The notes beneath the pieces are model-generated. The model had not been told where the DNA came from, searched no databases, and saw only the letters and a list, made by a program, of their open reading frames with translations. Source: a virus (lineage: Duplodnaviria; Heunggongvirae; Uroviricota; Caudoviricetes). From it: DNA of 20,458 nucleotides. The stretch spans positions 1 through 20,458 of IMG/VR virus record IMGVR_UViG_2925914267_000005; one strand, 5' to 3'. Positions 1 to 17,065 of the stretch are shown piece after piece. The position numbers and the translations under genes were made by a program. How positions within the stretch are numbered: the first letter of the stretch is position 1; every line of letters begins with the position of its first letter.

Positions 1-8
1 TCACTCTG

Positions 9-31
9 CCAGATGGCGCAATGCCATCTGG
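9..31. other. Perfect 9-bp inverted repeat (ccagatggc / gccatctgg, 5-nt loop) in host flank outside the prophage
   Basis: Read directly from sequence; no adjacent T-tract on either strand, so terminator function is uncertain. Confidence 0.3.
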
Positions 32-90
32 TATCACTTAAAGGTATTAAAAACAACTTTTTGTCTTTTTACCTTCCCGTTTCGCTCAAG

Positions 91-260
91 TTAGTATAAA
101 AAAGCTGAATGAGAAACGTAAAATGATATAAATATCAATATATTAAATTAGATTTTGCATAAAAAACAGACTACATAATACTGTAAAACACAACATATGC
201 AGTCACTATGAATCAACTACTTAGATAGCATTAGTGACCTACAACAGAGCATTAGCGCAA
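91..260 (-). other. attR: Prophage attR (P-O-B' junction): 15-bp lambda att core at 91-105 plus lambda attP P arm (about 106-260)
   Basis: Reverse complement of 91-105 is GCTTTTTTATACTAA, followed outward by CTTGAGCGAAACGGG (attB B' side as recalled); reverse complement of 106-260 reads like the lambda P arm (…AGGTCACTAAT…GTTGATTCATAGTGACTGCATATGTTGTGTTTTACAGTATTATG…). Confidence 0.85.
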
Positions 261-418
261 GGTGATTTTTGTCTTCTTGCGCTAATTTTTTGCTAATCCC
301 ACCATTTCTCAAAGATCACAAAGGGGTATGGTTGGTCTGGATGGCTCACCTGATGCAGAAGTATGATTTTGTAGTGACATCATTACCTTAATAGCGAACA
401 TTTCCTTGCCGCCTCGCA

Positions 419-446
419 TTGACGCGAGGTCGCACGGAAGTATAAT
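419..446 (+). promoter_or_regulatory. Putative sigma70 promoter for the acyltransferase gene: -35 TTGACG (419-424), 16-bp spacer, -10 TATAAT (441-446); 6-bp inverted repeat cctcgc/gcgagg (412-417 and 424-429) flanks the -35
   Basis: Hexamers read directly; positioned about 30 bp upstream of the ATG at 479. Confidence 0.5.
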
Positions 447-478
447 TCGTAGTCTTTCTACGTAGTTTAGGGAACAAT

Positions 479-1561
479 ATGTCGTCTAATAATCGACTCC
501 ATTATCTTGATGGTATTCGTGGCTGGGCCGCAACTATTGTTGTCTTCGGGCACACCATGGGGGGCGTGATTGCAATTGACGCACCTAATTTTGTAAATCA
601 TCAATGGATGAGCTTTTTTACAAATGCTCATCTTGCTGTTTTGGTATTTTTTGTTTTATCAGGCTACGTCCTGAGCGTTAGCCAAATCTACTCATCAAAA
701 CGTAATACTGCGGTATCCACCGTTGCAAGATTATTCAGATTGGCTCTTCCGATTCTGTTCGTAAGCCTTGTCGCATATATCATGATGAGGTTAAACCTAT
801 TTTTCAATGTTCAAGCCGCTACTAATGACATATCGAAATCGTGGTTAGGGACATTTTTCAGGTTTGAGCCGTCACTACCTGGTGTATTTTCCTTTTCATT
901 TTTCGATGTATTTTTCGCTTATGATACTCCGACATCATACAACTCTTCATTATGGACCATGCCTATAGAAATGGCTGGGTCAATTCTAATTTATTCATAC
1001 ATAGCTATATTCAGAACTGAAAAATTCAACTGGATAATTTCTTCCATTTTAATAGTTTATTTCTATTTTTATAGCCCATTCATGTTCTGCTTTATGGTTG
1101 GGTATGTTCTGGCTGAACTGAAAAAAATTAACAACCTATACCTGAGTGGTAGAAATGAAATACCGTTGATATTTATTTTCTTTGCCATGATCTATCTGGA
1201 TACATACCATAGGCCGGTTGATGAGATTATTCAGGCGCTTGAGGCGGTAGTATTTGTTGTTGTAATATCTTACAGCAAAACTTTATCATCGCTGTTCTCA
1301 TCAAGAGCATCAAGATTTATGGGCAGGATTTCGTTTTCTCTATATCTAGTTCAGATACTGGTTATTTGCTCATGGTCTTCGTACATGAAGATTTTACTAT
1401 CAAACTCTGGTATTAATATAAATATTGCAGCCTCAATAAACCTCATATCATCCATGGCTTTGTGCATATTAACAGCAAGAGCCATGACTCCTATTGATGA
1501 ATTTAGTGTTAAACACTCCAAAACCATTGCTTTTAAATTATTAAATTTATGCTCTAGGTAA
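479..1561 (+). CDS. Integral-membrane acyltransferase family 3 protein, probable O-antigen/LPS O-acetyltransferase (prophage moron)
   Basis: 360-aa ORF; N-terminal motif LDGIRGWAATIVVFGHT typical of acyltransferase-3 family; multiple hydrophobic segments; markedly AT-rich relative to neighbours. Confidence 0.75.
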   Translation: MSSNNRLHYLDGIRGWAATIVVFGHTMGGVIAIDAPNFVNHQWMSFFTNAHLAVLVFFVLSGYVLSVSQIYSSKRNTAVSTVARLFRLALPILFVSLVAYIMMRLNLFFNVQAATNDISKSWLGTFFRFEPSLPGVFSFSFFDVFFAYDTPTSYNSSLWTMPIEMAGSILIYSYIAIFRTEKFNWIISSILIVYFYFYSPFMFCFMVGYVLAELKKINNLYLSGRNEIPLIFIFFAMIYLDTYHRPVDEIIQALEAVVFVVVISYSKTLSSLFSSRASRFMGRISFSLYLVQILVICSWSSYMKILLSNSGININIAASINLISSMALCILTARAMTPIDEFSVKHSKTIAFKLLNLCSR

Positions 1562-2174
1562 CCAAGTCGTCAAGATGCACTTTAAGCCCCATAAGGGGCT
1601 TTCCATTCGCTCAGGTCTATCGAATCCACCATCCTGGCATACTAAAATGTTAATCGATATGCCATCAATCACTTCTTTCTCTTCATCCATTTCTGCCACG
1701 TAAATTGCGGCAATCGTATGGACGCTTTTCCTCAATTGGTTCATTATTTTTCCGATATGTCACACCCCATATTTAGATTTCAACGTTATTAGATCACTCG
1801 CAAACTGTTCCTTCAGCATTGGATATTTAGCTTGCTAATGCTGCATGATTGCTTCCATCAGTTAAAGATGCAGAACTAAAAGCTAACGTAAGAAATGAAA
1901 CATTCTCTTGATATGCTTTACTTAAGCTTTTCAGCTCTTTTTTGTATAGATAAGCATTTATTGTTGATTCTGAAATAATTTTATACTCCAGCTACTGACA
2001 GAATTTACTATTTGATGAATTGTGTTTATCTCCTAATGAGTGCTTAACATTTTAATTCATTACAATTTCCTTATATTCAAGGTATTTTTCAAGATCTTGC
2101 TCACAACGGAATATTGATACTAATTGACTTTCATCATTAGTTGAAAGTTGGATGTATAGATTCATCAATAGTCC

Positions 2175-3329
2175 TTAAATAGTATACCCACTTACACCAA
2201 CAGTTAAGCTAGATACTGATGATGTTGTCCAAGTGAATGTATAATAAATTGTTTGAGGGTTCTGGATTAGAAGCTCATAGTAAAAATCGACGCCAGTAGA
2301 TCTACTTAAACCAGCATATGCCTGGAAATACCCTACATCCTGGGTATCAGAAGCAATTGAAGCAGCTGCATAACCATCACCTTCCCCTGTGTTACAAAAC
2401 ACATAACCAGTACAGGTTGCTGCGTTTTTCGGGATCGCGTTTGTAAGAGAAATTGGAGTATACCCACCTGGGTTGCTACTGGTTGACAGTACATCAACTC
2501 GCTGGGTAGCGAACTTTCTCCCTCTTTGGTACCCAATTTTTAACAGCGCCCCAGATGTTGTTCCCCACACCGATACCAAAGCGCTCGCCGTATATCCTGC
2601 TGGCATGTTTGCACCACCATATACCGTGGGAGCAATAATAGAAGTGACGTCCTGAGCAAGTAATGCCGAGGTATCTGTCGTCGGGTTATAAATCAGGTAA
2701 ATTGCAACCCAACCACTGGCTGGCGCACTACCAGTATCCATGCCACCCGCCCCAGTCGTGGTGAGATTGATGGTTTTGTTGACCGAGCTTAAACGGTACT
2801 GCTTACCAGATAATGACTCACCAACAATGACTTGATCAGCAGTGAACGTTGCTGATGCCGACGCTATTGCCACGCTCATTTTCTGGTTAACAGCCTGACC
2901 AACCACGCCGGTGAATGATTCTCGCATCTTGAGGTAATCACTTAGCGGCGACCACCCAGCTGAAGAAGTATTAGGGTCGTTTGTGTTGTTGTTGATAGTG
3001 CTGATATAAATCGTTGCGCCGTCATCACTGATGAGAACAGCTCCAAGAGGATACCCTCCAACCGCCGTTGAAAAATCTGAGTCAAAAGCATTAAGAGCGC
3101 CTGCGCTAGACCATCTGCAAAGGGAAGACAACTCATACAAGATTTGATTCATGTCCTGCCCTTTGGGAGGAAGGCCCCCGGCAGATTTCAAAATCATTGT
3201 TATTGGTGGGAATCCTAAATCGTAGGATGCTGTATTATCTCCAGCTGGAGTTGTCGGCAGAAGATCCTCTCTTTGACCATTTACTCCAAAAGGTTTTGGT
3301 TGTTTTTTGGGTGAGTCAGAGCGATTCAT
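2175..3329 (-). CDS. Phage tail fiber protein
   Basis: 384-aa ORF; N-terminal GFPPITMILKSAGGLPPKGQDMNQILYEL resembles tail-collar fibre domain; Ser/Thr/Gly-rich C-terminal region; last gene of the baseplate operon. Confidence 0.7.
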   Translation of the reverse strand: MNRSDSPKKQPKPFGVNGQREDLLPTTPAGDNTASYDLGFPPITMILKSAGGLPPKGQDMNQILYELSSLCRWSSAGALNAFDSDFSTAVGGYPLGAVLISDDGATIYISTINNNTNDPNTSSAGWSPLSDYLKMRESFTGVVGQAVNQKMSVAIASASATFTADQVIVGESLSGKQYRLSSVNKTINLTTTGAGGMDTGSAPASGWVAIYLIYNPTTDTSALLAQDVTSIIAPTVYGGANMPAGYTASALVSVWGTTSGALLKIGYQRGRKFATQRVDVLSTSSNPGGYTPISLTNAIPKNAATCTGYVFCNTGEGDGYAAASIASDTQDVGYFQAYAGLSRSTGVDFYYELLIQNPQTIYYTFTWTTSSVSSLTVGVSGYTI

Positions 3330-3331
3330 AC

Positions 3332-3970
3332 TTAATTCCTATAAAATGTGCCATCATTAAACGGGTAGGCGTCAGATGAAAAACCGAAATAAGGACTAAT
3401 AATTTTTCGAATATTTACCTGAACACCACTAGGAACTGGCATTACTTCATAATTTGTGAGAATAGATTCCTCGTATGGTGCAAGTTCAAACTCGAATGTT
3501 ATTCCAATGGTCATATCTCGATAATTCACACAGTATGCCCTTCCTCTTTGAAAAAATAATATCTTTAAAAACTTGTTGATTTCTGGAATCGTAGCAATAC
3601 TTATGTTCGTAAACGCTTTGCAAAATATGAGTGTTCTGTAAGCCTCGTCACTCAATCTAACATTTGTTGTCTCCTGTGCTCCTCCAAAAAAAGGAGAGTT
3701 GTTGAACGGAGCGGGGTAATTTGGTTCTGCATTATCAGCTTCACTGAATCCGAAGGAATTGGTCTCTATAGGTGAGTTAATATAGCGACTTATCCCTACT
3801 ATTTTCCCCCACATATCCAGGCCGAATGTATCACAGGTAGTCAAATCCCATACTTTTTTAATAAACTCATCAGTGAAATCATCAAGGCTAATTGCCTGAT
3901 TAAAGGTATCAATGATGGATAGTAATTTTTTGCTTGCAGAGTACTGGGTAAGAATTGTGTCCTCCCACAT
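3332..3970 (-). CDS. Phage tail/baseplate protein (P2 gpI / Mu gp48 position)
   Basis: 212-aa ORF between the baseplate J-like gene and the tail fiber gene, matching P2 V-W-J-I-H order; family assignment by position only. Confidence 0.45.
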   Translation of the reverse strand: MWEDTILTQYSASKKLLSIIDTFNQAISLDDFTDEFIKKVWDLTTCDTFGLDMWGKIVGISRYINSPIETNSFGFSEADNAEPNYPAPFNNSPFFGGAQETTNVRLSDEAYRTLIFCKAFTNISIATIPEINKFLKILFFQRGRAYCVNYRDMTIGITFEFELAPYEESILTNYEVMPVPSGVQVNIRKIISPYFGFSSDAYPFNDGTFYRN

Positions 3971-3980
3971 ACATTTCCCC

Positions 3981-5210
3981 CTACGATAATGTAACAGTGA
4001 TATCTGATTCCTGAATGGTTGGAACCTGGTCTATGCCCATAGTCACAGCCGGTCCGTATAGTGAACCATCGAGAGAAACTTCAAGAGACAAAATTCCAAC
4101 TGTATCAGGAGATATTGAAATAACAGGGGCATAGTATTTACCAGCATTTATCGTCGAACCAATTCGTGCCTTTCCAATACCCTCATATCCTCCATTGAAC
4201 ACAGTGACAATCATTTCCTTTACTTGTTTAGTAATATCACTTGGGGGATTTAGTGAAGCATCGACATTTACCTTAAAGTAAACCCGCGTAGGTGATGCCT
4301 TTTGCCATTGCATTACATAAGATGGATATGGCGGCATGTAATTAACGTTATCGTAAACAGTGAACGTTGTATTACCATTCATATTGGCCCCGGGGTTATA
4401 AGTATTGAATATTGACTCAGCAACATCCGTATCAGCCCCGCCATAAACACAAATATAAACAGAATGCGCAAGAATCGGGAAATTCGTTGTTCCTTTATTT
4501 ACTGTTTCTGCAGTTCTGTTTGACCATACGTAAGCATCAAGCACACCATCAGTCGCAAGTAACGCGGCTAATGTAGATGCGTCCTGATTTCGACTGTTTC
4601 TGGCAACTGATTGTCTCCGGCGAGTTTCAAAGGCGATCCGTGATTCAACATCAACACCAACGACTCCAGGGCTAGTATTATTTACAGCATCCCACCCGGA
4701 AACGGCTCGATAAATCTGGTTCAGTGAACCTGCGGCACACGGAATCGGCCCGGTTGTTGTGTTGACAAACTGCACATCAACAGAGCCTGATGAGGGTATT
4801 ACAGCATTATCAATTGACTGATATATATACCCGCTCGTATCCACAGCGGTACTCCCTGCTGGTATTGTTGTTCCAACCTGACCAATGCATGTTGCTGTAA
4901 CAACTGTCCCCTGAGCAGCGATCCGCTCCATAAAGTAAATCCGACCAATCCCGTCCTGGAATCTGCCGGTTGAAAAGTCAGGGTTAATTTGATTAAACAA
5001 ACAAAGAAGCTTGTCGTATTCCTGAGCGATAATTTCAGTGTCAGACTGGGCGATCTGCCCTTGCGGTGAACTCAGTGACTGACTTGCGCCACCGCCAAGG
5101 GCCGTTGACATGTCTGTAAGTCTTCCCGCCAATACATCTGCTATATCGGGGACTGAAAGACCGTTTTCAGTGATGGTTACATCAGGAACAGCCGTATTTA
5201 ATGTCGTCAT
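3981..5210 (-). CDS. Baseplate J-like protein (P2 gpJ / Mu gp47 family)
   Basis: 409-aa ORF; size, position and sequence character consistent with baseplate J family; start overlaps upstream gene by 4 nt. Confidence 0.65.
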   Translation of the reverse strand: MTTLNTAVPDVTITENGLSVPDIADVLAGRLTDMSTALGGGASQSLSSPQGQIAQSDTEIIAQEYDKLLCLFNQINPDFSTGRFQDGIGRIYFMERIAAQGTVVTATCIGQVGTTIPAGSTAVDTSGYIYQSIDNAVIPSSGSVDVQFVNTTTGPIPCAAGSLNQIYRAVSGWDAVNNTSPGVVGVDVESRIAFETRRRQSVARNSRNQDASTLAALLATDGVLDAYVWSNRTAETVNKGTTNFPILAHSVYICVYGGADTDVAESIFNTYNPGANMNGNTTFTVYDNVNYMPPYPSYVMQWQKASPTRVYFKVNVDASLNPPSDITKQVKEMIVTVFNGGYEGIGKARIGSTINAGKYYAPVISISPDTVGILSLEVSLDGSLYGPAVTMGIDQVPTIQESDITVTLS

Positions 5211-5566
5211 AAGGTGGCCTGTGCAATATTACCATTGATATCTGTAACGCGGATTGTCCCGCGAGTTGTGCGTGTATTCTTGTCAAAGAAAACTGACGCC
5301 AGAGCATCCTCAACAACGGGTAATTTGAGTGCTTCAGCCTGCATTTTCTGAGCAATAAAACCAGGAGATGGTCGCCTGCCAAGAACTTCTGCCTTCCATG
5401 GGATCCCAAGTGTATTGTCGTAATAACACTCTCCTGAAAACACCAGGCATGCACTGGCGACATCCTGAGCAACAGAATATGATTCTTCTGCGATCGCCAG
5501 ATTGCCATTTCCGTCAAGCGTCAAGTCCCACGTAGAAGTGTCCAGCTGCATAGTTCTGTATGTCAT
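5207..5566 (-). CDS. Small baseplate wedge protein (P2 gpW / Mu gp46-like)
   Basis: 119-aa ORF between the V-like and J-like genes; translational coupling at both ends. Confidence 0.5.
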   Translation of the reverse strand: MTYRTMQLDTSTWDLTLDGNGNLAIAEESYSVAQDVASACLVFSGECYYDNTLGIPWKAEVLGRRPSPGFIAQKMQAEALKLPVVEDALASVFFDKNTRTTRGTIRVTDINGNIAQATL

Positions 5567-6255
5567 GTCGGTTTATCCGTTGCATTGGAATTTATTGTTG
5601 ACCCACCACTTTGTATTCCTGAAACAGAATGTTTGTGATTGTTATAGTTGTCCCTTAAATTTTTAACAGTAGATGACTGTGAGTCTGCGTTATCCTGAAT
5701 ATCGCCACTAACTTTAAGTAAAGGCGTATTCATGTTGACTCCATCAGGAGCATCAATATTTAACGATGAGCATTTGATATTTAGTGGGTTAGGCGTGGTT
5801 ATATTTATTGCACCGTCAGCGAATTCAATGAATTGAGTAGGTGAAATGTTTAATACCCCACCAAGATAAATCGCATCCGATTTACTGTGTCGTCTTTTGC
5901 TTCCAGGTACTGATTCTTTACGATTTTTTCTTACCAGTGATGTGTCTTTGTCGCATACCGCAATCAGACCAATATCACCTGCCACAGGGTCCATAATTAC
6001 AGCGCTGTTTCCTCTCTGCAACCGCCATACGGGAAGATCATATAAAACCGAGTTGGAAATCATTTTTCCTGTACGGTCTGTTCTGGTTAGTAAAGGAAGA
6101 ACATCAACAACTAAATCTGGTGCTTCCCCTCTGACTTCCTGAACTTTCGCTAACTCAATGAAGAAATATCCAGACATCAGCATCTCAAAAATATATTCCT
6201 GAGATTGAGCCTCACTTACCTGAGCAGGCGTTGGAGTAAATAGTTGCTTATCCAT
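5563..6255 (-). CDS. Baseplate assembly/spike protein V-like
   Basis: Start chosen at the ATG (MDKQLFTP…) that overlaps the upstream stop as ATGGATAA; the longer ORF to 6348 would overlap the upstream gene by about 100 nt; motif PVWRLQRGNSAVIMDPVAGDIGLIAV fits gpV-like fold. Confidence 0.5.
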   Translation of the reverse strand: MDKQLFTPTPAQVSEAQSQEYIFEMLMSGYFFIELAKVQEVRGEAPDLVVDVLPLLTRTDRTGKMISNSVLYDLPVWRLQRGNSAVIMDPVAGDIGLIAVCDKDTSLVRKNRKESVPGSKRRHSKSDAIYLGGVLNISPTQFIEFADGAINITTPNPLNIKCSSLNIDAPDGVNMNTPLLKVSGDIQDNADSQSSTVKNLRDNYNNHKHSVSGIQSGGSTINSNATDKPT

Positions 6256-7129
6256 TATTCTGTTGCGCCTCTGCTCTTTGTTCCGCTGTTCTGGCGGCAA
6301 TACATATTGAGTGCCATGAACCATTTGGCATCCATGATGATAATTCATGCCGAACGGAGGTTAACTTATACCTTCCGCTTGCATGTGGTAGTTCTGTTTT
6401 GATATCCACATATCTTCCAATGCAAAGGAGAGATGAATATTGCGTCTGAAACATCAGCCCCCCATTTGAAAATACAGGATATCCAACAAGTCCGTATTCT
6501 CTGGATATAAACGGAATTACATCATCTCTGTTTTTTTCTGAAGGCCAGAACTCTACTTTTGCAGGTGGCGTAGCTGACATTGCCAGTCCATAATCTGAAC
6601 AGACTCTATAAAGTTGCTCAAAAACACTTCCTTCAAAATGCGGACTTCCTGATGTTGTCATCCCTTTTACATTATTAAACACAGCTTCATAACCTGCACT
6701 TGCACAAATGGATGAGATGACATCTTCAACACTTTGCGCCCCCTGTGCTGTAAACGGGCTTGCTGGCATGTTCTGCAAATCAACATTAGAAGAAGCTGTT
6801 ATCATCAGGCTGCTTTCAGGAGCAGAATTCATGTTTGCTATTGATGAAAGCATCGTGCCAGAGAAAACAAGAGAATCATCGGCAAATACTTCAACATTTA
6901 GCTTCTGCCCTTCTCCAATAATACCATCAGCCTTCCCTGATATATCAGCAAGCCTTTCAATTCCTAACCCGTAAAGAGATATATCAGCCTGAGCGCCTCC
7001 CCGACCGGTAACAAAGTTCAGGGATACTGTTGACTTAACATTTCTGATGGAGATTTTATTGTTCCCATTTTTATCAAATGCTGATGATTCATTCGTGAAG
7101 TCAAACCGAAGACTGTGATTTTTATACAA
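6248..7129 (-). CDS. Phage tail/baseplate protein (possible hub, Mu gp44 / P2 gpD position)
   Basis: ORF runs to 7237, but the ATG starts would overlap the upstream gene by at least 80 nt; an in-frame TTG at 7129 preceded by GAGGA (8-nt spacer) overlaps the upstream stop; start uncertain. Confidence 0.4.
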   Translation of the reverse strand: MYKNHSLRFDFTNESSAFDKNGNNKISIRNVKSTVSLNFVTGRGGAQADISLYGLGIERLADISGKADGIIGEGQKLNVEVFADDSLVFSGTMLSSIANMNSAPESSLMITASSNVDLQNMPASPFTAQGAQSVEDVISSICASAGYEAVFNNVKGMTTSGSPHFEGSVFEQLYRVCSDYGLAMSATPPAKVEFWPSEKNRDDVIPFISREYGLVGYPVFSNGGLMFQTQYSSLLCIGRYVDIKTELPHASGRYKLTSVRHELSSWMPNGSWHSICIAARTAEQRAEAQQNNG

Positions 7130-7424
7130 GCTCGTTTTCCTCGATGTAGTACAGCAAGTAACGGCTACCCAAGCCTTCCCATTGCGGATCCGATTCCCCA
7201 TCATTATCAATGAAAATAAGGTCTCCCTTAAATCCAAGGTAGGAATATCTTACCATCTTATTCCCATACAGACATGGAACGCCCTGCATAATTGGGACTT
7301 CATTAACAGTTAAATCCATGTACATAAAACTCTGTCGCTGAACAAGTTTTATATTACATTGCTGACCAGACAGACTTACCGAAATGGACTGAGATTTGCT
7401 GGGAAGAACAGATACTGTAATCAT
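7122..7424 (-). CDS. Hypothetical phage tail-module protein (100 aa)
   Basis: Intact ORF with an in-frame stop 9 nt upstream and an AAGG ribosome-binding site; first retained gene after the IS600-like element. Confidence 0.4.
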   Translation of the reverse strand: MITVSVLPSKSQSISVSLSGQQCNIKLVQRQSFMYMDLTVNEVPIMQGVPCLYGNKMVRYSYLGFKGDLIFIDNDGESDPQWEGLGSRYLLYYIEENELV

Positions 7425-7573
7425 GTACTCGCCTTAACTATATTTTTTGCAATATCTGCCGCTTTTTTTGTTGCGCTGTTTGTGACTTCGAGTATTGGTT
7501 TGGATACCGTGAGGTAGCCTGAGTTTAACGGACACTCCTTCCTGAAATAGAATGGCATCAGAAGGAGCTAATA

Positions 7574-7876
7574 ATGAGCAGAAAAACCCAACGTTACTCT
7601 AAAGAGTTCAAAGCCGAAGCTGTCAGAACGGTTCTTGAAAATCAACTTTCGATCAGTGAAGGCGCTTCCCGATTATCTCTTCCTGAAGGCACTTTAGGGC
7701 AATGGGTTACCGCCGCCAGAAAAGGGCTCGGTACTCCTGGTTCCCGCACGGTGGCTGAACTGGAATCTGAAATTCTGCAACTGCGTAAGGCGTTAAATGA
7801 AGCTCGCCTTGAGCGAGATATATTAAAAAAAGCAACAGCGTATTTTGCACAGGAGTCGCTGAAAAATACGCGTTAA
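7574..7876 (+). CDS. IS3-family transposase OrfA (helix-turn-helix)
   Basis: 100-aa ORF MSRKTQRYSKEFKAEAVR…; contains the frameshift window near its 3' end. Confidence 0.85.
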   Translation: MSRKTQRYSKEFKAEAVRTVLENQLSISEGASRLSLPEGTLGQWVTAARKGLGTPGSRTVAELESEILQLRKALNEARLERDILKKATAYFAQESLKNTR

Positions 7877-7911
7877 TCGAACAATGGCGACAACAATTTC
7901 CCATTGAAGCG

Positions 7912-8730
7912 ATGTGTCAGGTATTTGGTGTATCCAGGAGCGGTTATTACAACTGGGTACAGCATGAACCCTCAGACAGAAAACAAAGTGATGAGCGGCT
8001 AAAACTGGAGATTAAGGTGGCACATATCCGCACTCGCGAAACATATGGAACCCGGCGGCTCCAGACGGAGCTGGCAGAGAATGGCATCATCGTTGGTCGT
8101 GACCGACTGGCACGTCTTCGTAAGGAGCTAAGGCTACGCTGTAAGCAGAAACGCAAGTTCAGAGCGACTACGAACTCGAACCACAATCTGCCAGTTGCGC
8201 CAAATCTGCTGAACCAGACGTTCGCTCCTACAGCACCAAATCAGGTCTGGGTGGCGGACCTGACGTATGTTGCCACACAGGAGGGATGGTTGTACCTCGC
8301 TGGCATCAAAGATGTTTATACGTGCGAAATTGTCGGCTACGCCATGGGAGAGCGCATGACAAAAGAGCTGACAGGTAAAGCCCTGTTTATGGCGCTCAGG
8401 AGCCAGCGCCCACCTGCCGGGCTAATCCACCACTCTGATCGAGGTTCACAGTACTGCGCATACGATTACCGGGTCATACAGGAGCAGTTTGGTCTGAAAA
8501 CATCAATGTCGCGTAAAGGTAACTGTTACGACAACGCTCCGATGGAAAGCTTCTGGGGAACGCTGAAAAATGAGAGCCTGAGCCACTATCGTTTTAATAA
8601 CCGGGATGAAGCCATCTCAGTAATACGGGAATACATTGAGATTTTCTACAATCGTCAGCGTCGTCACTCTCGTCTGGGGAATATCTCCCCGGCAGCCTTC
8701 AGGGAAAAATATCATCAGATAGCTGCTTAA
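7912..8730 (+). CDS. IS3-family transposase OrfB (DDE catalytic domain), normally made as OrfAB fusion by -1 frameshift
   Basis: 272-aa ORF with integrase-core-like motifs (…HSDRGSQY…NAPMESFWGTLK…). Confidence 0.85.
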   Translation: MCQVFGVSRSGYYNWVQHEPSDRKQSDERLKLEIKVAHIRTRETYGTRRLQTELAENGIIVGRDRLARLRKELRLRCKQKRKFRATTNSNHNLPVAPNLLNQTFAPTAPNQVWVADLTYVATQEGWLYLAGIKDVYTCEIVGYAMGERMTKELTGKALFMALRSQRPPAGLIHHSDRGSQYCAYDYRVIQEQFGLKTSMSRKGNCYDNAPMESFWGTLKNESLSHYRFNNRDEAISVIREYIEIFYNRQRRHSRLGNISPAAFREKYHQIAA

Positions 8731-8994
8731 AAAAAGAACAAATGGTAGTGTCCGCTATTGCCAGTACACCTCAGGGAAATATGTCGATAAATGGGCAATA
8801 CGAACGACGGCAATGATTGCCAGAGAACTTGGTAAACAGAACAACAAGGCTGCCTGATGGTGGCCTTTATTTTTGGCATAAACAACAGAATAAACACTGC
8901 ACTGTGTATTCATTCCAACGAGTGAATACACGGAGCAATGTCGCTCGTAACTAAACAGGAGCCAACTTGTTCTGATTATTGGAAATCTTCTTTG

Positions 8995-9020
8995 CCCTCC
9001 AGTGTGAGGGCAATTTTTTT
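8995..9020 (+). terminator. Possible intrinsic terminator (ccctc-cagtgt-gaggg plus T8) just upstream of the coiled-coil gene
   Basis: 5-bp GC stem and T-run read directly; short stem, so weak. Confidence 0.3.
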
Positions 9021-9033
9021 TAACGGGGGAAAT

Positions 9034-10002
9034 ATGAGTGAAGTAACAGATTTAGTTGTTATTGAAAAAGCAAATGCAATGACTGTATTTCAGTCTGCCG
9101 ACCAGATTGAAGAAATCCTTCAAAAGGTTGAACGTGAAGTTATGTCCTTTGTGCCTGATATCACAACGGCAAAGGGCAGAAAGGAGATCGCTTCTCTGGC
9201 GTATAAAGTTGCGCAGACGAAAACATATCTCGATGGTCTTGGCAAAGACCTTGTTGCTGAACTGAAGGAAATTCCAAAGCTAATTGATGCTAACCGCAAG
9301 ACAGTGCGTGATCGCCTTGATGAGCTGAAAGCCAAGGCACGCCAGCCTCTTACTGATTATGAGGAAGAACAGGCGCGGATTAAAGCCGAAGAAGAAGCTA
9401 AGGCAGCAGCTGAAGCTCTCGCAAAGCAAATTGAGTCTGACCATGAAATAGCGATTTTGATGGATCGCGAATTTGACCGCCAAAGAGAAGAGGCAAGACT
9501 CAAAGCGGAGCAGGAAAAGCGAGAGCATGAAGAACGCTTAAAAAGAGAAGCTGAAGAGAAAGCCAGAGCTGAAGCCGAAGCAAAGGCAAAAGCCGAAATT
9601 GAAGCAGCAGCAAGGCGAGAAGCAGAAGCTAAGGCCGCAGCGGAACGTGCAGAGCGTGAACGCATTGAAGCCGAGCAACGAGCACAGCGCGAAGCAAAAG
9701 AGGCAGCAGAACGAGCTGAAAGAGAAAAGCAGGCAGCAATTGAAGCAGAACGCCGAAAAGCACAGGAGGAGGCAGAACGAATCCGGCGCGAGGCTGAAGC
9801 AAAAGAGCAAGCCAGAATAGCAGAAGAAAAAAGAATCAAGGACGAAGAAGAGCGTAGAGCAAAGGATAAAGCTCACCGGAGAGAAGTAAATAACAAAATA
9901 CTTGCTGACCTTATCAAGGTTGGCGCATCAGAAGATGTTGCTAAAAATATCATAATAGCCATCGCAAAAGGCGAAGTATTCGCAACAAAAATAACCTACT
10001 AA
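9034..10002 (+). CDS. Hypothetical phage early protein with long E/A/K/R-rich predicted coiled-coil region (TolA-domain-II-like composition)
   Basis: ATG at 9034 preceded by GGGGGA; ORF could extend upstream to 8938; central ~200 aa is low-complexity EAKAR-type; occupies the position of ea10/ral/sieB upstream of cIII. Confidence 0.6.
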   Translation: MSEVTDLVVIEKANAMTVFQSADQIEEILQKVEREVMSFVPDITTAKGRKEIASLAYKVAQTKTYLDGLGKDLVAELKEIPKLIDANRKTVRDRLDELKAKARQPLTDYEEEQARIKAEEEAKAAAEALAKQIESDHEIAILMDREFDRQREEARLKAEQEKREHEERLKREAEEKARAEAEAKAKAEIEAAARREAEAKAAAERAERERIEAEQRAQREAKEAAERAEREKQAAIEAERRKAQEEAERIRREAEAKEQARIAEEKRIKDEEERRAKDKAHRREVNNKILADLIKVGASEDVAKNIIIAIAKGEVFATKITY

Positions 10003-10026
10003 TAAAACCAACATAAGGAACCACCC

Positions 10027-10197
10027 ATGATTTACGCAATCGCGGGAGGCGCTCGCATGGGTGCCTTCCAACTAAATGAATCTTTACTTGAACGAATCAC
10101 CCGTAAATTACGTGACGGATGGAAACGACTTATCGACATACTTAATCAGCCAGGAGTCCCAAAAAATGGATCAAACACTTATGGCTATCCAGACTAA
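10027..10197 (+). CDS. cIII: Lambda-like CIII (FtsH/HflB inhibitor)
   Basis: 56-aa [59 protein letters not shown], near-identical over most of its length to lambda CIII as recalled; preceded by AAGGA. Confidence 0.85.
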   Translation: MIYAIAGGARMGAFQLNESLLERITRKLRDGWKRLIDILNQPGVPKNGSNTYGYPD

Positions 10198-10309
10198 ATT
10201 CACTATCGCCACTTTTATTGGCGATGAAAAGATGTTTCGTGAGGCCGTCGACGCTTATAAAAAATGGATATTAATACTGAAACTGAGATCAAGCAAAAGC
10301 ATTCACTAA
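10166..10309 (+). CDS. kil: Lambda Kil (FtsZ-ring inhibitor)
   Basis: 47-aa [50 protein letters not shown] matches lambda Kil as recalled; overlaps cIII 3' end. Confidence 0.85.
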
Positions 10310-10680
10310 CCCCCTTTCCTGTTTTCCTAATCAGCCCGGCATTTCGCGGGCGATATTTTCACAGCTATTTCAGGAGTTCAGCCATGAACGCTTATTACAT
10401 TCAGGATCGTCTTGAGGCTCAGAGCTGGACGCGTCACTACCAGCAGATCGCCCGTGAAGAGAAAGAGGCAGAACTGGCAGACGACATGGAAAAAGGCCTG
10501 CCCCAGCACCTGTTTGAATCGCTATGCATCGATCATTTGCAACGCCACGGGGCCAGCAAAAAAGCCATTACCCGTGCGTTCGATGACGATGTTGAGTTTC
10601 AGGAGCGCATGGCAGAACACATCCGGTACATGGTTGAAACTATTGCCCGCCACCAGGTTGATATTGATTCAGAGGTATAA
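10264..10680 (+). CDS. gam: Lambda Gam (RecBCD inhibitor); GamS internal start at 10383
   Basis: 138-aa [52 protein letters not shown]… near-identical to lambda Gam as recalled. Confidence 0.92.
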
Positions 10681-10685
10681 AACGG

Positions 10686-11471
10686 ATGAGTACAGCACTC
10701 GCAACGCTGGCAGGGAAGCTGGCTGAACGTGTCGGCATGGATTCTGTCGACCCACAGGAACTGATCACCACTCTTCGCCAGACAGCATTTAAAGGCGATG
10801 CCAGCGATGCGCAGTTCATCGCATTGCTGATCGTCGCCAACCAGTACGGCCTTAATCCGTGGACGAAAGAAATTTACGCCTTCCCTGATAAGCAGAACGG
10901 CATCGTTCCGGTGGTGGGCGTTGATGGCTGGTCCCGTATCATCAATGAAAACCAGCAGTTTGATGGCATGGACTTTGAGCAGGACAATGAATCCTGCACA
11001 TGCCGGATTTACCGCAAGGACCGTAATCATCCGATCTGCGTTACCGAGTGGATGGATGAATGCCGCCGCGAACCATTCAAAACCCGCGAAGGCAGAGAAA
11101 TCACGGGGCCGTGGCAGTCGCATCCCAAACGGATGTTACGGCATAAAGCCATGATTCAGTGTGCCCGTCTCGCCTTCGGATTTGCTGGTATCTATGACAA
11201 GGATGAAGCCGAGCGCATTGTCGAAAATACCGCATACACTGCAGAACGTCAGCCGGAACGCGACATCACTCCGGTTAACGATGAAACCATGCAGGAGATT
11301 AACACTCTGCTGATTGCCCTGGATAAAACATGGGATGACGACTTATTGCCGCTCTGTTCCCAAATATTTCGCCGCGACATTCGCGCATCGTCAGAACTGA
11401 CACAGGCCGAAGCAGTGAAAGCTCTTGGATTCCTGAAACAGAAAGCCACTGAGCAGAAGGTGGCAGCATGA
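10686..11471 (+). CDS. bet: Lambda Red beta (single-strand annealing protein)
   Basis: 261-aa [41 protein letters not shown]… near-identical to lambda Bet as recalled. Confidence 0.95.
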
Positions 11472-12148
11472 CACCGGACATTATCCTGCAGCGTACCGGG
11501 ATCGACGTGAGAGCTGTCGAACAGGGGGATGATGCATGGCACAAATTACGGCTCGGCGTCATCACCGCTTCAGAAGTTCACAACGTGATAGCAAAGCCCC
11601 GATCAGGAAAGAAGTGGCCTGACATGAAAATGTCCTACTTCCACACCCTGCTGGCTGAGGTTTGCACCGGTGTGGCTCCGGAAGTTAACGCTAAAGCGCT
11701 GGCCTGGGGAAAACAGTACGAGAACGACGCCAGAACCCTGTTTGAGTTCACTTCCGGCGTAAATGTTATTGAATCCCCGATCATCTATCGCGACGAAAGT
11801 ATGCGCACCGCCTGCTCTCCCGATGGTTTATGCAGTGACGGCAATGGCCTTGAGCTGAAATGCCCGTTTACCTCCCGGGATTTCATGAAGTTCCGGCTCG
11901 GTGGTTTCGAGGCCATAAAGTCGGCTTACATGGCCCAGGTGCAGTACAGCATGTGGGTGACGCGAAAAGATGCCTGGTACTTTGCCAACTATGACCCGCG
12001 TATGAAGCGTGAAGGCCTGCATTATGTCGTGGTTGAGCGGGATGAAAAGTACATGGCGAGTTTTGACGAGATGGTGCCGGAGTTCATCGAAAAAATGGAC
12101 GAGGCACTGGCTGAAATTGGTTTTGTATTTGGGGAGCAATGGCGATGA
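11468..12148 (+). CDS. exo: Lambda exonuclease (Red alpha)
   Basis: 226-aa [68 protein letters not shown]… near-identical to lambda Exo as recalled; ATGA overlap with bet. Confidence 0.95.
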
Positions 12149-12327
12149 CGCATCCTCACGATAATATCCGGGTAGGCGCGATCACTTTCGTCTACTCCGT
12201 TACAAAGCGAGGCTGGGTATTTCCCGGCCTTTCTGTTATCCAAAATCCACTGAAAGCCCAGCGGCTGGCTGAGGAGATAAATAATAAACGAGGGGCTGTA
12301 TGCACAAAGCATCTCCCGTTGAGTTAA
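12145..12327 (+). CDS. Lambda orf60a-like hypothetical protein
   Basis: [56 protein letters not shown]…; ATG overlaps exo stop (ATGA); alternative ATG at 12139. Confidence 0.8.
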
Positions 12328-12491
12328 GAACGAGTATCGAGATGGCACATAGCCTCGCTCAAATTGGAGTCAGGTTTGTGCCAATACCAGTAGAAACAGA
12401 CGAAGAATTTCATACGTTAGCCACATCCCTTTCACAAAAGCTGGAAATGATGGTGGCGAAAGCAGAAGCAGATGAGAGAGACCAGGTATGA
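12300..12491 (+). CDS. Lambda orf63-like hypothetical protein
   Basis: 63-aa ORF in lambda order between orf60a and orf61. Confidence 0.75.
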   Translation: MHKASPVELRTSIEMAHSLAQIGVRFVPIPVETDEEFHTLATSLSQKLEMMVAKAEADERDQV

Positions 12492-12571
12492 CAACCACTG
12501 AATGCATTTTTCTGGCAGCGGGCTTCATATTCTGTGTGCTTATGCTTGCCGACATGGGACTTGTTCAATGA
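12488..12571 (+). CDS. Candidate 27-aa hydrophobic micro-protein (MTTTECIFLAAGFIFCVLMLADMGLVQ)
   Basis: Not in ORF track (too short); start ATG overlaps orf63 stop as ATGA and its stop overlaps orf61 start as ATGA; single predicted transmembrane helix. Confidence 0.35.
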   Translation: MTTTECIFLAAGFIFCVLMLADMGLVQ

Positions 12572-12783
12572 CACCTCAGCAAGAAAACGCCCTTCGCAGT
12601 ATTGCCCGTCAGGCTAATTATGAAATCAAAAAAGCCAGACAGCGGTTTCCGGATAAAAACGTCGATGACATTTGCCGTAGCGTACTGAAGAAGCACCGCG
12701 AAACGGTAACGCTGATGGGATTCACACCGACTCACTTAAGTCTGGCAATCGGTATGTTAAACGGCGTCTTTAAGGAACGGTGA
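12568..12783 (+). CDS. Lambda orf61-like hypothetical protein
   Basis: 71-aa ORF MTPQQENALRSIARQANYEIKKARQRFPDKNVDDICRSVLKKHRETVTLMGFTPTHLSLAIGMLNGVFKER matches lambda orf61 as recalled. Confidence 0.8.
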   Translation: MTPQQENALRSIARQANYEIKKARQRFPDKNVDDICRSVLKKHRETVTLMGFTPTHLSLAIGMLNGVFKER

Positions 12784-12804
12784 ACATGAAAAGCAAAATC
12801 ATCA

Positions 12805-12828
12805 GGGAGCTACAGGCTCCTTTTTTAT
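12805..12828 (+). terminator. Intrinsic terminator-like hairpin (ggagc-tacag-gctcc plus T6) after orf61
   Basis: Stem and T-run read directly. Confidence 0.5.
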
Positions 12829-12881
12829 TATTCGCATTCACCCTCAAGCGTATTAACCAACAATTCAGGGATTAATGAAAG

Positions 12882-13103
12882 ATGGCGGACATCATTGATT
12901 CAGCATCAGAAATTGAAGAATTACAGCGCAATACAGCAATAAAAATGCGCCGCCTGAACCACCAGGCTATATCTGCCACTCATTGTTGTGAGTGTGGCGA
13001 TCCCATAGATGAGCGAAGACGCCTGGCCGTTCAGGGTTGTCGGACTTGTGCAAGTTGCCAGGAAGTTCTGGAGCTTATCAGTAAACAGAGAGGTTCGAAG
13101 TGA
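12882..13103 (+). CDS. TraR/DksA-family C4-type zinc finger protein
   Basis: 73-aa ORF with CxxC…CxxC (CCECGDPIDERRRLAVQGCRTCASC) characteristic of phage/plasmid TraR-like proteins. Confidence 0.7.
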   Translation: MADIIDSASEIEELQRNTAIKMRRLNHQAISATHCCECGDPIDERRRLAVQGCRTCASCQEVLELISKQRGSK

Positions 13104-13471
13104 GCGAAATTAACTCTCAGGCACTGCGTGAAGCGGCAGAGCAGGCAATGCATGACAACTGGGGATTTGACGCGGACCTTTTCCATGAGCTGGTAACACC
13201 ATCGATTGTGCTGGCACTGCTGGATGAACGGGAAAGAAACCAGCAATACATCAAACGCCGCGACAAGGAGAACGAGGATATTGCACTAACGGTAGGGAGG
13301 CTGCGCGTTGAGCTGGAAGGCAAACACAGGCGCATTACTGAGCTGACAATGTGGATTAAGCGACTGAGTTCCTCTCTCAAAAACGCAAAACCAGACAGCA
13401 AGTTGCCGGATGACGCAATGATCTGGCTAAATAATGAAGGGCTTACCAGTATAGAGGATATTTTACGATGA
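13100..13471 (+). CDS. Ea22-like protein (N-terminal region resembles lambda Ea22)
   Basis: MSEINSQALREAAEQAMHDNWGFDADLFHELVTPSIVL…ERERNQQYIKRRD… matches recalled lambda Ea22 N-terminus, C-terminal part diverges. Confidence 0.65.
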   Translation: MSEINSQALREAAEQAMHDNWGFDADLFHELVTPSIVLALLDERERNQQYIKRRDKENEDIALTVGRLRVELEGKHRRITELTMWIKRLSSSLKNAKPDSKLPDDAMIWLNNEGLTSIEDILR

Positions 13472-14006
13472 GCACTTTTACCATGGAATGGCTACAAAAT
13501 ACGATTACCAGTATTGAGTCAGCACGAGATGAAATGCCATTCGGACTCGATAACGATCAAGCACACATGCTTACAGCATTTAAAATCGCTCTCGCCTCAC
13601 TGGAACGCGAGCGGGTTCGCCACGAGCATGCCAAATGGTCTGACTCCACATTTGGCTGCGTTGGCCCCATTGGTCCACTGAAACACCTCTCAAAAGAGGC
13701 TCTGGAAGCCGCAGCCGAACCTGACGATCTCAGCGAGTGGGCTGATATGCAGTTCCTGTTGTGGGATGCACAGCGCCGTGCTGGCATCAGCGATGCTGAA
13801 ATTAACGTTGCTATGGAAGATAAATTGAAGATCAACATGGAGCGCCAGTGGCCTGAGCCAAAAGATGGTGAGCCTCGCTTGCACATTAAAGAACCCGGCA
13901 ACTCTCCGATAATTCCGGATGGTTTACCCACGGTATGCGCTGAGGCTTATCAGGTTGTAGGAGTTATGGCAGATGCGCTTGGTGTATTCGGTGATGCAGC
14001 AGTACA
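13468..14006 (+). pseudogene. 5' fragment of a phage gene interrupted by the IS629-like element
   Basis: ORF continues in-frame across the IS if the IS and one ACA copy are removed (…GDAAV|QKVLDNL…). Confidence 0.7.
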
Positions 14007-14060
14007 TGAACCGCCCCGGGAATCCTGGAGACTAAACTCCCTGAGAAAGAGGTAAACAGG

Positions 14061-15274: not shown

Positions 15275-15319
15275 GTTCACAGATAAAACACTCTCCAGGA
15301 AACCCGGGGCGGTTCAACA

Positions 15320-17039: not shown

Positions 17040-17065
17040 CACACTGAAAAATATAGGAGGTCATC

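What the first reader, a model, noticed from the sequence alone, without database searches (positions are those of the whole stretch)
2175..7424. Contractile-tail-type baseplate and tail-fibre module inside a prophage with lambda int/att and lambda early genes
The gene order (hub-like, V-like, W-like, J-like, I-like, fibre) with tight translational coupling follows the P2/Mu baseplate arrangement, whereas lambda itself has a siphovirus tail (J, stf, tfa). The element is therefore a mosaic, and only the distal baseplate and fibre are retained. The retained fibre plus baseplate could be a non-functional leftover or a receptor-binding module kept for another purpose.
Basis: inference. Interest (0 to 1): 0.45.

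Follow-up and report, generated by a model that had tools for sequence, protein, structure and literature searches.

The report
Leftover phage baseplate genes after deletion
This stretch is the surviving tail-tip (baseplate and fibre) end of a contractile-tailed, lambda-like prophage whose middle (about 30 kb by analogy with relatives) is gone, with an insertion sequence at the break; it is an ordinary decaying prophage, not a new device.

Summary
Window 2175-7424 (minus strand) holds seven tightly coupled genes: plug, hub, spike, sheath initiator (W-like), Baseplate_J, wedge-1 (DUF2612, I-like) and tail fibre. All match contractile-tail baseplate proteins by profile, PDB sequence or fold.

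The lineage is not P2 or Mu. All seven genes are colinear with Edwardsiella phage GF-2 (44-72% identity), and they are distantly related to the solved baseplates of E217/Pa193, XM1 and Pam3.

The whole prophage lies in the window, between two lambda att cores (91-105 and 19114-19128). It carries lambda-type int, xis, exo, bet and gam. Lambdoid early genes plus a contractile tail is the normal design of this phage group, as seen in GF-2 and in an E. coli STEC299 prophage.

IS600 (7510-8773) has no target duplication. It joins the last ~29 codons of the gene upstream of the plug to the last 27 codons of ral. Sheath, tube, tape measure, head, lysis, replication and immunity genes are missing.

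Window 1-7510 differs by one base from prophages elsewhere whose tail module is complete, so the intact ORFs reflect a recent deletion, not selection. Other strains carry different IS-bounded truncations. Verdict: non-functional leftover; low interest.

The parts
91..105 (-). Lambda att core (attR side), followed by the lambda P arm up to about 292
   Evidence: Exact GCTTTTTTATACTAA. Window 87-292 is 97.1% identical to the lambda/HK630 attP region. Alignment.
479..1561 (+). Acyltransferase-3 family gene (probable O-antigen O-acetyltransferase), a low-GC moron converging on the fibre gene
   Evidence: Pfam Acyl_transf_3 1.2e-22. phrog_3333 O-acetyltransferase 1.3e-23. GC 35-38%. Present next to the fibre in all related loci.
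2175..3329 (-). Tail fibre, 384 aa: conserved baseplate-attachment N-terminus and an exchangeable distal part
   Evidence: Several PHROG tail-fibre families, best 4e-55. The N-terminal 133-147 aa are 68% identical to GF-2 and E. coli relatives, after which similarity ends. The C-terminal 250 aa are 55-58% identical to BcepMu gp52 and Yersinia myophage fibres.
3332..3970 (-). Baseplate wedge-1 protein (DUF2612 / Phage_Wedge1), functional counterpart of P2 gpI and Mu gp48
   Evidence: Pfam PF11041 7e-53. PDB: XM1 baseplate wedge gp17 (7kh1) 4e-10. 70% identical to GF-2 gp30.
3981..5210 (-). Baseplate_J wedge protein (triplex subunit)
   Evidence: Pfam Baseplate_J 1.1e-11. PDB: Pa193 gp45, E217 gp44 and XM1 gp16, 1e-14 to 3e-9. 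69% identical to GF-2 gp29.
5207..5566 (-). Sheath initiator (gp25/W-like)
   Evidence: phrog_120 9e-37. PDB: Pam3 sheath initiator gp21 2.9e-8, Pa193 gp35, E217 gp34. Precomputed PF10934 Sheath_initiator on the identical protein.
5563..6255 (-). Central spike (V-like), 230 aa, with a C-terminal HKH apex-like motif
   Evidence: PDB: E217 baseplate spike gp43, Pa193 gp44 and phage SN puncturing protein gp41 (4ru3), about 5e-9. Weak Pfam Gp138_N-like and GpV Apex hits. Gene callers give 230 aa in related loci.
6248..7129 (-). Baseplate hub (gp27 / Mu gp44-like), 293 aa from TTG 7129
   Evidence: phrog_196 baseplate hub 1e-68. AlphaFold model pLDDT 78. Foldseek top hits are hubs of Bas63, PhiTE, E217 and Pa193, then eCIS, MuSo2/Mu gp44, VgrG and T4 gp27. 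The 8-bp overlap with the plug gene is the same as in GF-2.
7122..7424 (-). Baseplate plug
   Evidence: Pfam Pam3_gp18 1.7e-24, above the gathering score. PDB: E217 gp33 1.4e-3. 68% identical to GF-2 gp25.
7421..7509 (-). 3' stump (about 29 codons) of the 271-aa tail gene that precedes the plug in copies with a complete tail module; the rest is deleted
   Evidence: Alignment of the junction with L002. The full protein is phrog_1830 2e-74 with a weak Dit_like match, 1.8e-4, below the cut-off.
7510..8773 (+). IS600, 1264 bp, at the deletion junction; no target-site duplication (flanks ccg / ggg)
   Evidence: 99.8% identical over 1264 of 1264 bp to elements annotated 'IS3-like element IS600'. Ends read. 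Flanks mapped onto the intact 271-aa gene and intact ral.
8774..8857 (+). 3' stump (27 codons plus stop) of ral; its first 39 codons and everything upstream (N, immunity, replication and onward) are deleted
   Evidence: Junction compared with intact ral in L007, L011 and L012. Pfam Ral on those genes.
10264..12148 (+). Lambda gam, bet and exo (context: early-left operon of the same prophage)
   Evidence: 97.5% identical to lambda J02459 blocks covering int, xis, exo, bet and gam. Pfam Gam, RecT and YqaJ on the identical genes in L007.
17774..19040 (+). Lambda-type xis and int
   Evidence: lambda 27724-34170, 97.5%. Pfam Exc, Arm-DNA-bind_1 and Phage_integrase.
19114..19128 (-). Lambda att core (attL side) with the P' arm; ybhC follows from 19175
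   Evidence: ybhC annotation under the matches.

Best explanation
The window holds a whole, defective prophage of about 19 kb at the lambda attachment site, between the bio side and ybhC. Its parent was a temperate phage of the GF-2-like kind. That kind has lambdoid control and early genes (here lambda-type int, xis, exo, bet, gam and attP) and a contractile tail with a simple baseplate of the E217/XM1/Pam3 type.

A deletion bounded by IS600 removed the segment from inside the gene upstream of the baseplate plug to inside ral. By analogy with relatives this is about 30 kb. It held the tape measure, tube, sheath, neck, head, terminase, lysis, Q/nin, replication, immunity and N genes.

What remains at the attR end is the distal part of the late operon: plug, hub, spike, sheath initiator, J, wedge-1 and fibre, followed by an acyltransferase moron. 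These genes have lost their late promoter and antiterminator, and every partner needed to build a tail. They are most likely silent passengers that have not yet had time to decay.

Shown: the gene identities, both att sites, the IS600 junctions without a target duplication, near-identity to copies with a complete tail module, and independent truncations in other strains.

Inferred: the lack of expression, the deletion mechanism (recombination between two IS600 copies, or an IS600 adjacent deletion), and the size of the deletion.
For: - Gene identities.
- Relationship to GF-2: all seven genes are colinear at 44-72% identity. Similarity to Mu and SfV is marginal, and there is none to P2.
- Prophage limits: both att cores lie in the window, 19,023 bp apart (offset between the two cores, 91 to 19114) and in direct orientation. 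The lambda P arm is at the fibre end. The P' arm, int and xis are at the other end.
- Complete relatives: window 1-7510 is 99.987% identical (one intergenic mismatch) to loci L002 and L005. There the same genes are preceded by a sheath (E217_gp31_N), a tube (E217_Gp32), a chaperone, a tape measure with an SLT domain, an Arc/Ant region and the 271-aa gene. All seven proteins are 100% identical to those of L002.
- Junctions: IS600 abuts codon ~242 of the 271-aa gene on one side and codon 40 of ral on the other. The flanking triplets differ, ccg versus ggg. By contrast the IS629 at 14007-15316 has a clean ACA duplication.
- Other truncations of the same prophage: L007 has an IS629-like element at window position 5262. 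L009 has another IS at 5557. L013 has IS629 in ral, 21 bp from the IS600 site.
- Whole-genome layouts of the same design: GF-2 and E. coli STEC299. By analogy the missing segment is about 30 kb.
- Promoters: no sigma-70-like site on the minus strand between IS600 and the plug gene. Promoter-like sites in 1500-7700 are fewer than in shuffled sequence.
- Further decay in the same element: a frameshifted anti-repressor and an IS629-split ea22-like gene.
Against: - No expression data exist. A simple promoter scan cannot exclude transcription.
- All seven ORFs are intact.
- The three truncated variants all keep J, wedge-1, fibre and the acyltransferase. This could reflect selection on something at this end, most plausibly the acyltransferase.
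- The early region of the 99.99%-identical loci that keep a complete tail module was not recovered. That one parent genome carried both halves therefore rests on the att arms, on L001 and on analogy.
- No intermediate with two IS600 copies was found, so the deletion mechanism is unresolved.
Confidence: 0.88

Rival explanations
1. The baseplate-fibre block, or at least J, wedge-1 and fibre, is kept by selection. It would act as a working receptor-binding unit: for example as a donor of fibre or baseplate parts to other prophages, or as a surface or secreted binding complex.
For: - All seven ORFs are intact.
- Three independently truncated variants (window/L008, L007, L009) all keep J, wedge-1, fibre and the acyltransferase.
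- Fibre modules are exchanged among phages.
Against: - The remnant differs by 0-2 bases in 5-7.5 kb from copies with a complete tail module. ORF integrity therefore carries no information about selection.
- The truncation points differ (upstream of the plug, inside the sheath initiator, at its start), so no fixed baseplate gene set is conserved.
- The late promoter and Q are gone, and no promoter-like site precedes the plug gene.
- The 271-aa gene upstream of the plug (weak Dit-like match only, function untested), the tape measure, the tube and the sheath are absent.
- The neighbouring acyltransferase explains why deletions stop short of attR.
Confidence: 0.05
2. The element is a fusion of two different prophages that lay at or near att-lambda: a myovirus remnant and a lambda remnant. 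Recombination at IS600 joined them, rather than an internal deletion within one genome.
For: - IS600 lacks a target duplication and joins unrelated sequences.
- The early region of the 99.99%-identical loci with a complete tail module was not seen.
- L001 shows that IS-driven shuffling between a siphovirus-tailed lambda-like prophage and this myovirus type does occur.
Against: - The fibre end carries the lambda P arm and the int end carries the lambda P' arm. They flank one attB in the orientation expected of a single integrated genome.
- L001 has int, an uninterrupted attP and the fibre end contiguous.
- GF-2 and the STEC299 prophage show the same layout in single genomes.
- L007 has the same two halves joined by a different IS at different points.
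Confidence: 0.05
3. The block is a tailocin or an extracellular contractile injection system, not a phage remnant.
For: The hub fold also matches eCIS, pyocin and diffocin hubs.
Against: - There is no sheath, tube, tape measure or lysis gene anywhere in the window.
- The block is one base away from the tail end of prophages that keep a complete tail module.
- The closest relatives are phages with heads.
Confidence: 0.01

Closest known systems
Edwardsiella phages GF-2 and Edno5 (genus Gofduovirus) and Vibrio phage IKEMa6-1
   Same: - The same seven genes in the same order, with the same small overlaps. Identities are 44-72%, and J is 67-73%.
- The same overall design: the tail module is followed by the fibre, then the integrase and a lambdoid early-left operon with N-like and cIII genes.
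   Different: - GF-2 is a complete 43-kb phage. It has its own integrase, Erf instead of Bet/Exo, and a tail-fibre assembly gene.
- The window copy is truncated. It has lambda int/att/Red, a different distal fibre, no tfa gene, and an acyltransferase moron.
E. coli prophages of the same type: STEC299 at torT, Z1323CEC0013, and the near-identical att-lambda prophages of loci L002-L006
   Same: - Baseplate proteins are 85-100% identical.
- L002 and L005 are 99.987% identical in DNA over window 1-7510 and also lie at att-lambda.
   Different: - They keep the sheath, tube and tape measure. Head, lysis, replication and immunity genes are also seen in STEC299 and in part in Z1323CEC0013; the L002-L006 loci do not reach that far.
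- STEC299 uses another integrase and att site, has another distal fibre with a tfa gene, and carries a serine acetyltransferase moron.
Solved simple contractile baseplates: Pseudomonas phages E217 (8eon/8env) and Pa193 (9b45), Vibrio phage XM1 (7kh1), cyanophage Pam3 (7yfz)
   Same: The same set of parts: plug, hub, spike, sheath initiator, J-type triplex subunit and wedge-1. The matches are detectable by sequence or by fold.
   Different: Homology is distant (hub about 14% identity; E-values 1e-3 to 1e-14). Apart from the cyanophage Pam3, their hosts differ per the names. No structure exists for this module itself.
Mu / SfV baseplate (gp44-gp49) and the P2 V-W-J-I-H-G operon
   Same: - The functional order hub, spike, W, J, I, fibre is as in Mu and SfV.
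- The hub fold matches Mu gp44 (1wru, 9ki1).
- SfV is likewise a lambdoid-controlled myovirus with an O-antigen modification moron next to the fibre.
   Different: - Sequence similarity is only marginal: J versus Mu gp47 E 0.002; hub and spike versus SfV orf16 and orf17, E 0.004 and 8e-5. There is no cognate P2 hit.
- No Pfam hits to Phage_GPD, Phage_base_V, GPW_gp25 or Tail_P2_I.
- A plug gene and a 271-aa gene replace Mu gp43.
- In P2 the hub gene D lies in another operon.
The oac1b-carrying defective prophage of Shigella flexneri serotype 1b (PMC3630932)
   Same: As the paper describes it: an O-acetyltransferase gene lies next to the tail fibre and baseplate genes of an incomplete prophage. 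The prophage is bounded by IS elements, lacks recombination, immunity, replication and lysis genes, and cannot be induced.
   Different: - It lies at torT with an HK022-type integrase and keeps head and tail genes.
- Its sequence was not compared here, so kinship is not tested.
- The window's acyltransferase has no close phage relative; the best is Pantoea phage PA-1 at 28%.

Membership tests
GF-2-like (Gofduovirus-type) temperate myovirus tail-tip module | Colinear plug, hub, spike, sheath initiator, J, DUF2612 wedge and fibre genes with clear sequence identity | tested here: met
   tblastn against GF-2 finds all seven in order at 44-72% identity, E 1e-47 to 0. The annotation order is shown.
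GF-2-like (Gofduovirus-type) temperate myovirus tail-tip module | Sheath, tube, chaperone and tape-measure genes upstream in the same operon | tested here: not met
   Absent from the window. Present in the 99.99%-identical loci L002, L004 and L005. The window copy is therefore a truncated member.
GF-2-like (Gofduovirus-type) temperate myovirus tail-tip module | Lambdoid layout: the fibre end lies next to attP and int, followed by the early-left operon | tested here: met
Simple contractile baseplate of the E217 / XM1 / Pam3 type | Plug of the Pam3_gp18 family | tested here: met
   PF22479: 86.6 bits against a cut-off of 24.2. E217 gp33 at 1.4e-3.
Simple contractile baseplate of the E217 / XM1 / Pam3 type | Sheath initiator, J-type triplex subunit, wedge-1, spike and hub homologous to the solved components | tested here: met
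   PDB sequence hits. Hub by fold, with E217 8eon_E at 1.5e-15.
P2-type baseplate operon (V-W-J-I-H-G) | Sequence or Pfam membership in Phage_base_V, GPW_gp25, Baseplate_J and Tail_P2_I | tested here: not met
   Only Baseplate_J is hit. tblastn against P2 gives no cognate hit at E<=1.
P2-type baseplate operon (V-W-J-I-H-G) | Operon starts with V; the hub gene D lies in the separate F operon | tested here: not met
   Here the plug and hub genes directly precede the spike gene. P2 map.
Mu / SfV-type baseplate (gp43-gp49) | Gene order hub, spike, W-like, J-like, I-like, fibre | tested here: met
Mu / SfV-type baseplate (gp43-gp49) | Recognisable sequence similarity to Mu gp44-48 or SfV orf16-20 | tested here: inconclusive
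   Only marginal cognate hits: J versus Mu gp47 E 0.002; hub versus SfV orf16 E 0.004; spike versus SfV orf17 E 8e-5. None for W-like, I-like or plug. This is remote homology, not family membership.
Siphovirus distal tail (Dit / Tal / lambda J) | Profile assignment of these ORFs to siphovirus tail-tip families | tested here: not met
   No such Pfam or PHROG assignment for any of the seven. A sheath initiator, J and wedge-1 are specific to contractile systems.
R-type tailocin / extracellular contractile injection system | Sheath and tube genes in the locus | tested here: not met
   None in the 20.5-kb window.
Lambda site-specific integration module | 15-bp core at both prophage ends, P and P' arms, lambda-type Int and Xis, location between bio and ybhC | tested here: met
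   ybhC annotation. ybhB and bioA beyond the attR end in related loci.
Simple IS600 insertion | The same 3-bp target duplication on both sides, flanking sequence that is contiguous in uninterrupted copies | tested here: not met
   The flanks are ccg and ggg. They map to two genes that lie far apart in intact genomes. The IS629 in the same window does have its duplication, ACA.

The most novel reading that the evidence does not exclude
The end of the prophage next to attR (J, wedge-1, fibre and the acyltransferase) is repeatedly spared by independent IS-mediated deletions because it is useful to the host. In the most novel version, the fibre with its baseplate adaptor proteins is expressed and used, for instance as a spare receptor-binding cassette for co-resident myovirus prophages. 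In the more mundane version, only the acyltransferase (O-antigen modification) is selected and the baseplate genes hitch-hike.
Probability: 0.05. Interest if true: 0.4.

Novelty: new member of a known kind. Interest (0 to 1): 0.1.

Why it matters
It matters little beyond annotation.

- It shows that the 'hypothetical proteins' at this locus are the baseplate and fibre of a GF-2-like lambdoid myovirus. Related baseplate modules (88-94% DNA identity) were seen in a number of complete E. coli genomes.
- It is a clean, datable example of IS-driven prophage decay. One base of divergence from copies with a complete tail module, and three different truncation points in related strains, make the history easy to read.
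- For genome annotation, intact tightly coupled structural ORFs in a prophage remnant should not be read as evidence of retained function.
- The neighbouring acyltransferase is the only gene at this end with an obvious possible benefit to the host.

Tried and rejected
- Megablast of 1600-7520 against the phage collection found nothing. Relatives appeared only at the protein level.
- I tried to recover the early region of the 99.99%-identical prophages (those that keep a complete tail module) by exact look-up of the 354-aa protein, its 322-aa version and Int. These returned other lambdoid or P22-like prophages, or short contigs, but not the L002/L005 contigs. The size of the deletion is therefore given only by analogy with STEC299 and GF-2.
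- From IS600 and IS629 I first guessed a Shigella origin. Public names for the identical fibre and acyltransferase say Escherichia coli, and IS600 is common in E. coli. I dropped the guess.
- I checked whether the acyltransferase is one of the known S. flexneri genes. oacC sits in an SfII-type prophage and is unrelated. The oac1b prophage is an analogous case at another site. tblastn finds no close phage homologue.
- The PDB sequence and profile searches for the hub were negative, so a structure prediction and fold search were used instead.
- The Pfam scan here did not reproduce the precomputed PF10934 hit for the sheath initiator (versus 16). That assignment rests on PHROG and PDB hits instead.
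- Rfam and tRNA scans found nothing inside 2175-7424.
- The small plus-strand ORFs within the module (all 88 aa or shorter) were not pursued.

Full report
**What is at 2175-7424.** Seven minus-strand ORFs fill the interval exactly. After correcting two over-extended starts by comparison with gene calls in related loci and with GF-2, they are:

| Gene | Coordinates | Note |
|---|---|---|
| plug | 7122-7424 | |
| hub | 6248-7129 | TTG start |
| spike | 5563-6255 | |
| sheath initiator | 5207-5566 | W-like |
| Baseplate_J | 3981-5210 | |
| wedge-1 (DUF2612) | 3332-3970 | I-like |
| fibre | 2175-3329 | |

The junctions are 8-, 8-, 4- and 4-bp overlaps, then a 10-bp gap with a GGGGGA ribosome-binding site, then a 2-bp gap.

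**Identity of each gene.**
- Pfam gives Pam3_gp18 (plug, 1.7e-24), Baseplate_J (1.1e-11) and DUF2612/Phage_Wedge1 (7e-53).
- PHROGs give baseplate hub (1e-68), baseplate wedge subunits (9e-37 and 4e-64) and several tail-fibre families (best 4e-55).
- Against PDB sequences:
  - the plug matches E217 gp33;
  - the spike matches E217 gp43, Pa193 gp44 and the puncturing protein gp41 of phage SN;
  - the W-like protein matches the sheath initiators of Pam3, Pa193 and E217;
  - J matches Pa193 gp45, E217 gp44 and XM1 gp16;
  - DUF2612 matches XM1 wedge protein gp17.
- The hub had no PDB sequence match. An AlphaFold model built on 21 homologues (pLDDT 78) matches the hubs of Bas63, PhiTE, E217 and Pa193 first. 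After those come eCIS hubs, MuSo2 and Mu gp44, VgrG and T4 gp27.

**Which lineage.** The functional order is that of Mu and SfV, but the family is different.
- tblastn of the seven proteins against P2 gives no cognate hit at E<=1.
- Against Mu and SfV it gives only marginal cognate hits: J versus Mu gp47 at 0.002, hub versus SfV orf16 at 0.004, spike versus SfV orf17 at 8e-5.
- Against Edwardsiella phage GF-2 it gives seven colinear hits of 44-72% identity.
- By the J protein, the nearest phages are Vibrio phage IKEMa6-1 (73.5%), Edno5 and GF-2 (67-68%), Pantoea PA-1 (55%) and Klebsiella prophage-derived phages (about 50%).
- Published comparisons place Gofduovirus near Pbunavirus and Obolenskvirus (PMC12390725, PMC10888812). 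This agrees with the E217 and Pa193 matches.
- Only the first ~133-147 residues of the fibre are shared with GF-2 and the E. coli relatives. Its distal 250 residues resemble the fibres of BcepMu, other Burkholderia phages and Yersinia myophages at 55-58%. This is the usual exchange of fibre tips.

**The surrounding element.**
- The lambda att core occurs at 91-105 and at 19114-19128 in the same orientation.
- The lambda P arm follows the first core (97.1% to lambda attP).
- The P' arm, int and xis adjoin the second core, and ybhC follows.
- About half of 8774-19130 is 97.5% identical to lambda 27724-34170 (int, xis, exo, bet, gam, ea22).

The entire prophage is therefore inside the window and spans only 19 kb. 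It also contains an IS629 (14007-15316) with a clean ACA target duplication that splits an ea22-like gene, and a frameshifted anti-repressor.

**Why only the tail tip is left.** IS600 occupies 7510-8773 (99.8% over its full 1264 bp). On its left is the last ~29 codons of a 271-aa tail gene (phrog_1830, weak Dit-like match). In copies with a complete tail module, that gene directly precedes the plug. On its right is the last 27 codons of ral. The flanking triplets differ (ccg and ggg), and the two flanks belong to genes that lie far apart in intact genomes. IS600 therefore marks a deletion junction, not a simple insertion.

Missing are the tape measure, chaperone, tube, sheath, neck, head, terminase, lysis, Q/nin, replication, immunity and N genes. 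In the STEC299 prophage the corresponding interval is about 34 kb including two IS100 copies. In GF-2 it is about 30 kb.

**Copies with a complete tail module, and other truncated copies.** The exact fibre protein occurs on many public contigs named Escherichia coli. In L002-L006 the same module sits at the same att site, next to ybhB and bioA, in all but L004. L004 has other genes beyond the acyltransferase. In these loci the module is preceded by an E217-type sheath and tube, a tape measure with an SLT domain, an Arc/Ant region and the 271-aa gene.

Window 1-7510 differs from L002 and L005 by a single base each. All seven proteins are 100% identical to those of L002. The deletion is therefore recent, and intact ORFs say nothing about selection.

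Other strains carry the same prophage cut elsewhere:
- L007 has an IS629-like element at window position 5262.
- L009 has another IS at 5557.
- L013 has IS629 in ral, 21 bp from the IS600 site.
- L008 is identical to the window.

**Is it a mosaic?** Relative to lambda, yes. But the combination is the normal architecture of this phage group.
- GF-2 has the same tail module followed by the fibre, int and a lambdoid early-left operon with N-like and cIII genes.
- E. coli STEC299 has a complete prophage of the same design at torT, with another integrase.
- In E. coli Z1323CEC0013 a lambda-type int is joined to the fibre end of the module through an uninterrupted attP: P arm, a variant core, then the P' arm.

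The int/att and recombination modules are exchangeable, as is usual among lambdoid phages.

**Function.** A tail cannot be built without the tape measure, tube and sheath, and probably the 271-aa gene upstream of the plug (its role is untested). The late promoter and Q are also gone. IS600 is transcribed away from the module. No sigma-70-like site lies between IS600 and the plug gene (a weak test).

The most likely state is a silent, not-yet-decayed remnant. The only gene at this end with a plausible benefit to the host is the converging, low-GC acyltransferase (479-1561). The oac1b remnant of S. flexneri 1b is a described parallel (PMC3630932).

**Verdict.** It is an ordinary IS-degraded prophage of a known kind, so interest is low.

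Noticed in passing
window 16033-16814 (+): The anti-repressor gene is split into a 59-aa ORF and a 202-aa ORF in different frames. They match positions 1-55 and about 64-264 of the same PHROG anti-repressor families. It is probably a frameshift pseudogene, and the sequence is identical in L007.
   Followed up: partly
window 14007-15316 (+), flanks 14004-14006 and 15317-15319: An IS629-type element (1310 bp) with a 3-bp target duplication, ACA. It splits an ea22-like gene (13468-14055 plus 15240-15581, both phrog_60). The Rfam ALIL pseudoknot hit at 14342-14458 is its frameshift signal. L007 lacks this insertion.
   Followed up: yes
window 16936-17025 (+): An Rfam sRNA-Xcc1 match (64.9 bits, gathering score 53) lies just upstream of the Ant-like gene at 17066-17689.
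   Followed up: no
window 8774-8857; L013 positions 1-97: ral is hit repeatedly by insertion sequences. IS600 is here, and in L013 an IS629 end lies 21 bp upstream of the same point. Many E. coli matches to the early region also begin at 8774-8792 next to IS3-family elements.
   Followed up: partly
window 1562-2174: An AT-rich (about 35% GC) spacer with few ORFs lies between the fibre gene and the converging acyltransferase gene. There is no tail-fibre assembly gene here, although GF-2 and the E. coli relatives have one. Only a 65-aa ORF (1547-1744) with no PHROG match is present.
   Followed up: partly
window 479-1561 (+): The acyltransferase-3 family moron has no close homologue in the phage collection. 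The only hit is the acyltransferase of Pantoea phage PA-1 (28% over half the protein), which also lies downstream of the fibre in a phage of the same tail type.
   Followed up: partly
window 8938-10002 (+): A 354-aa (or 322-aa) protein rich in Glu, Ala, Lys and Arg, probably coiled-coil, of unknown function (phrog_1376). It lies between ral and cIII. The identical protein is widespread in lambdoid and P22-like early-left operons.
   Followed up: no
L001 18330-18600 (E. coli Z1323CEC0013): An uninterrupted attP with a variant core, AACTTTTTATCCTAA, lies between lambda-type int and the fibre end. The locus is otherwise shuffled by IS100 and IS3 with a siphovirus-tailed lambda-like prophage.
   Followed up: partly
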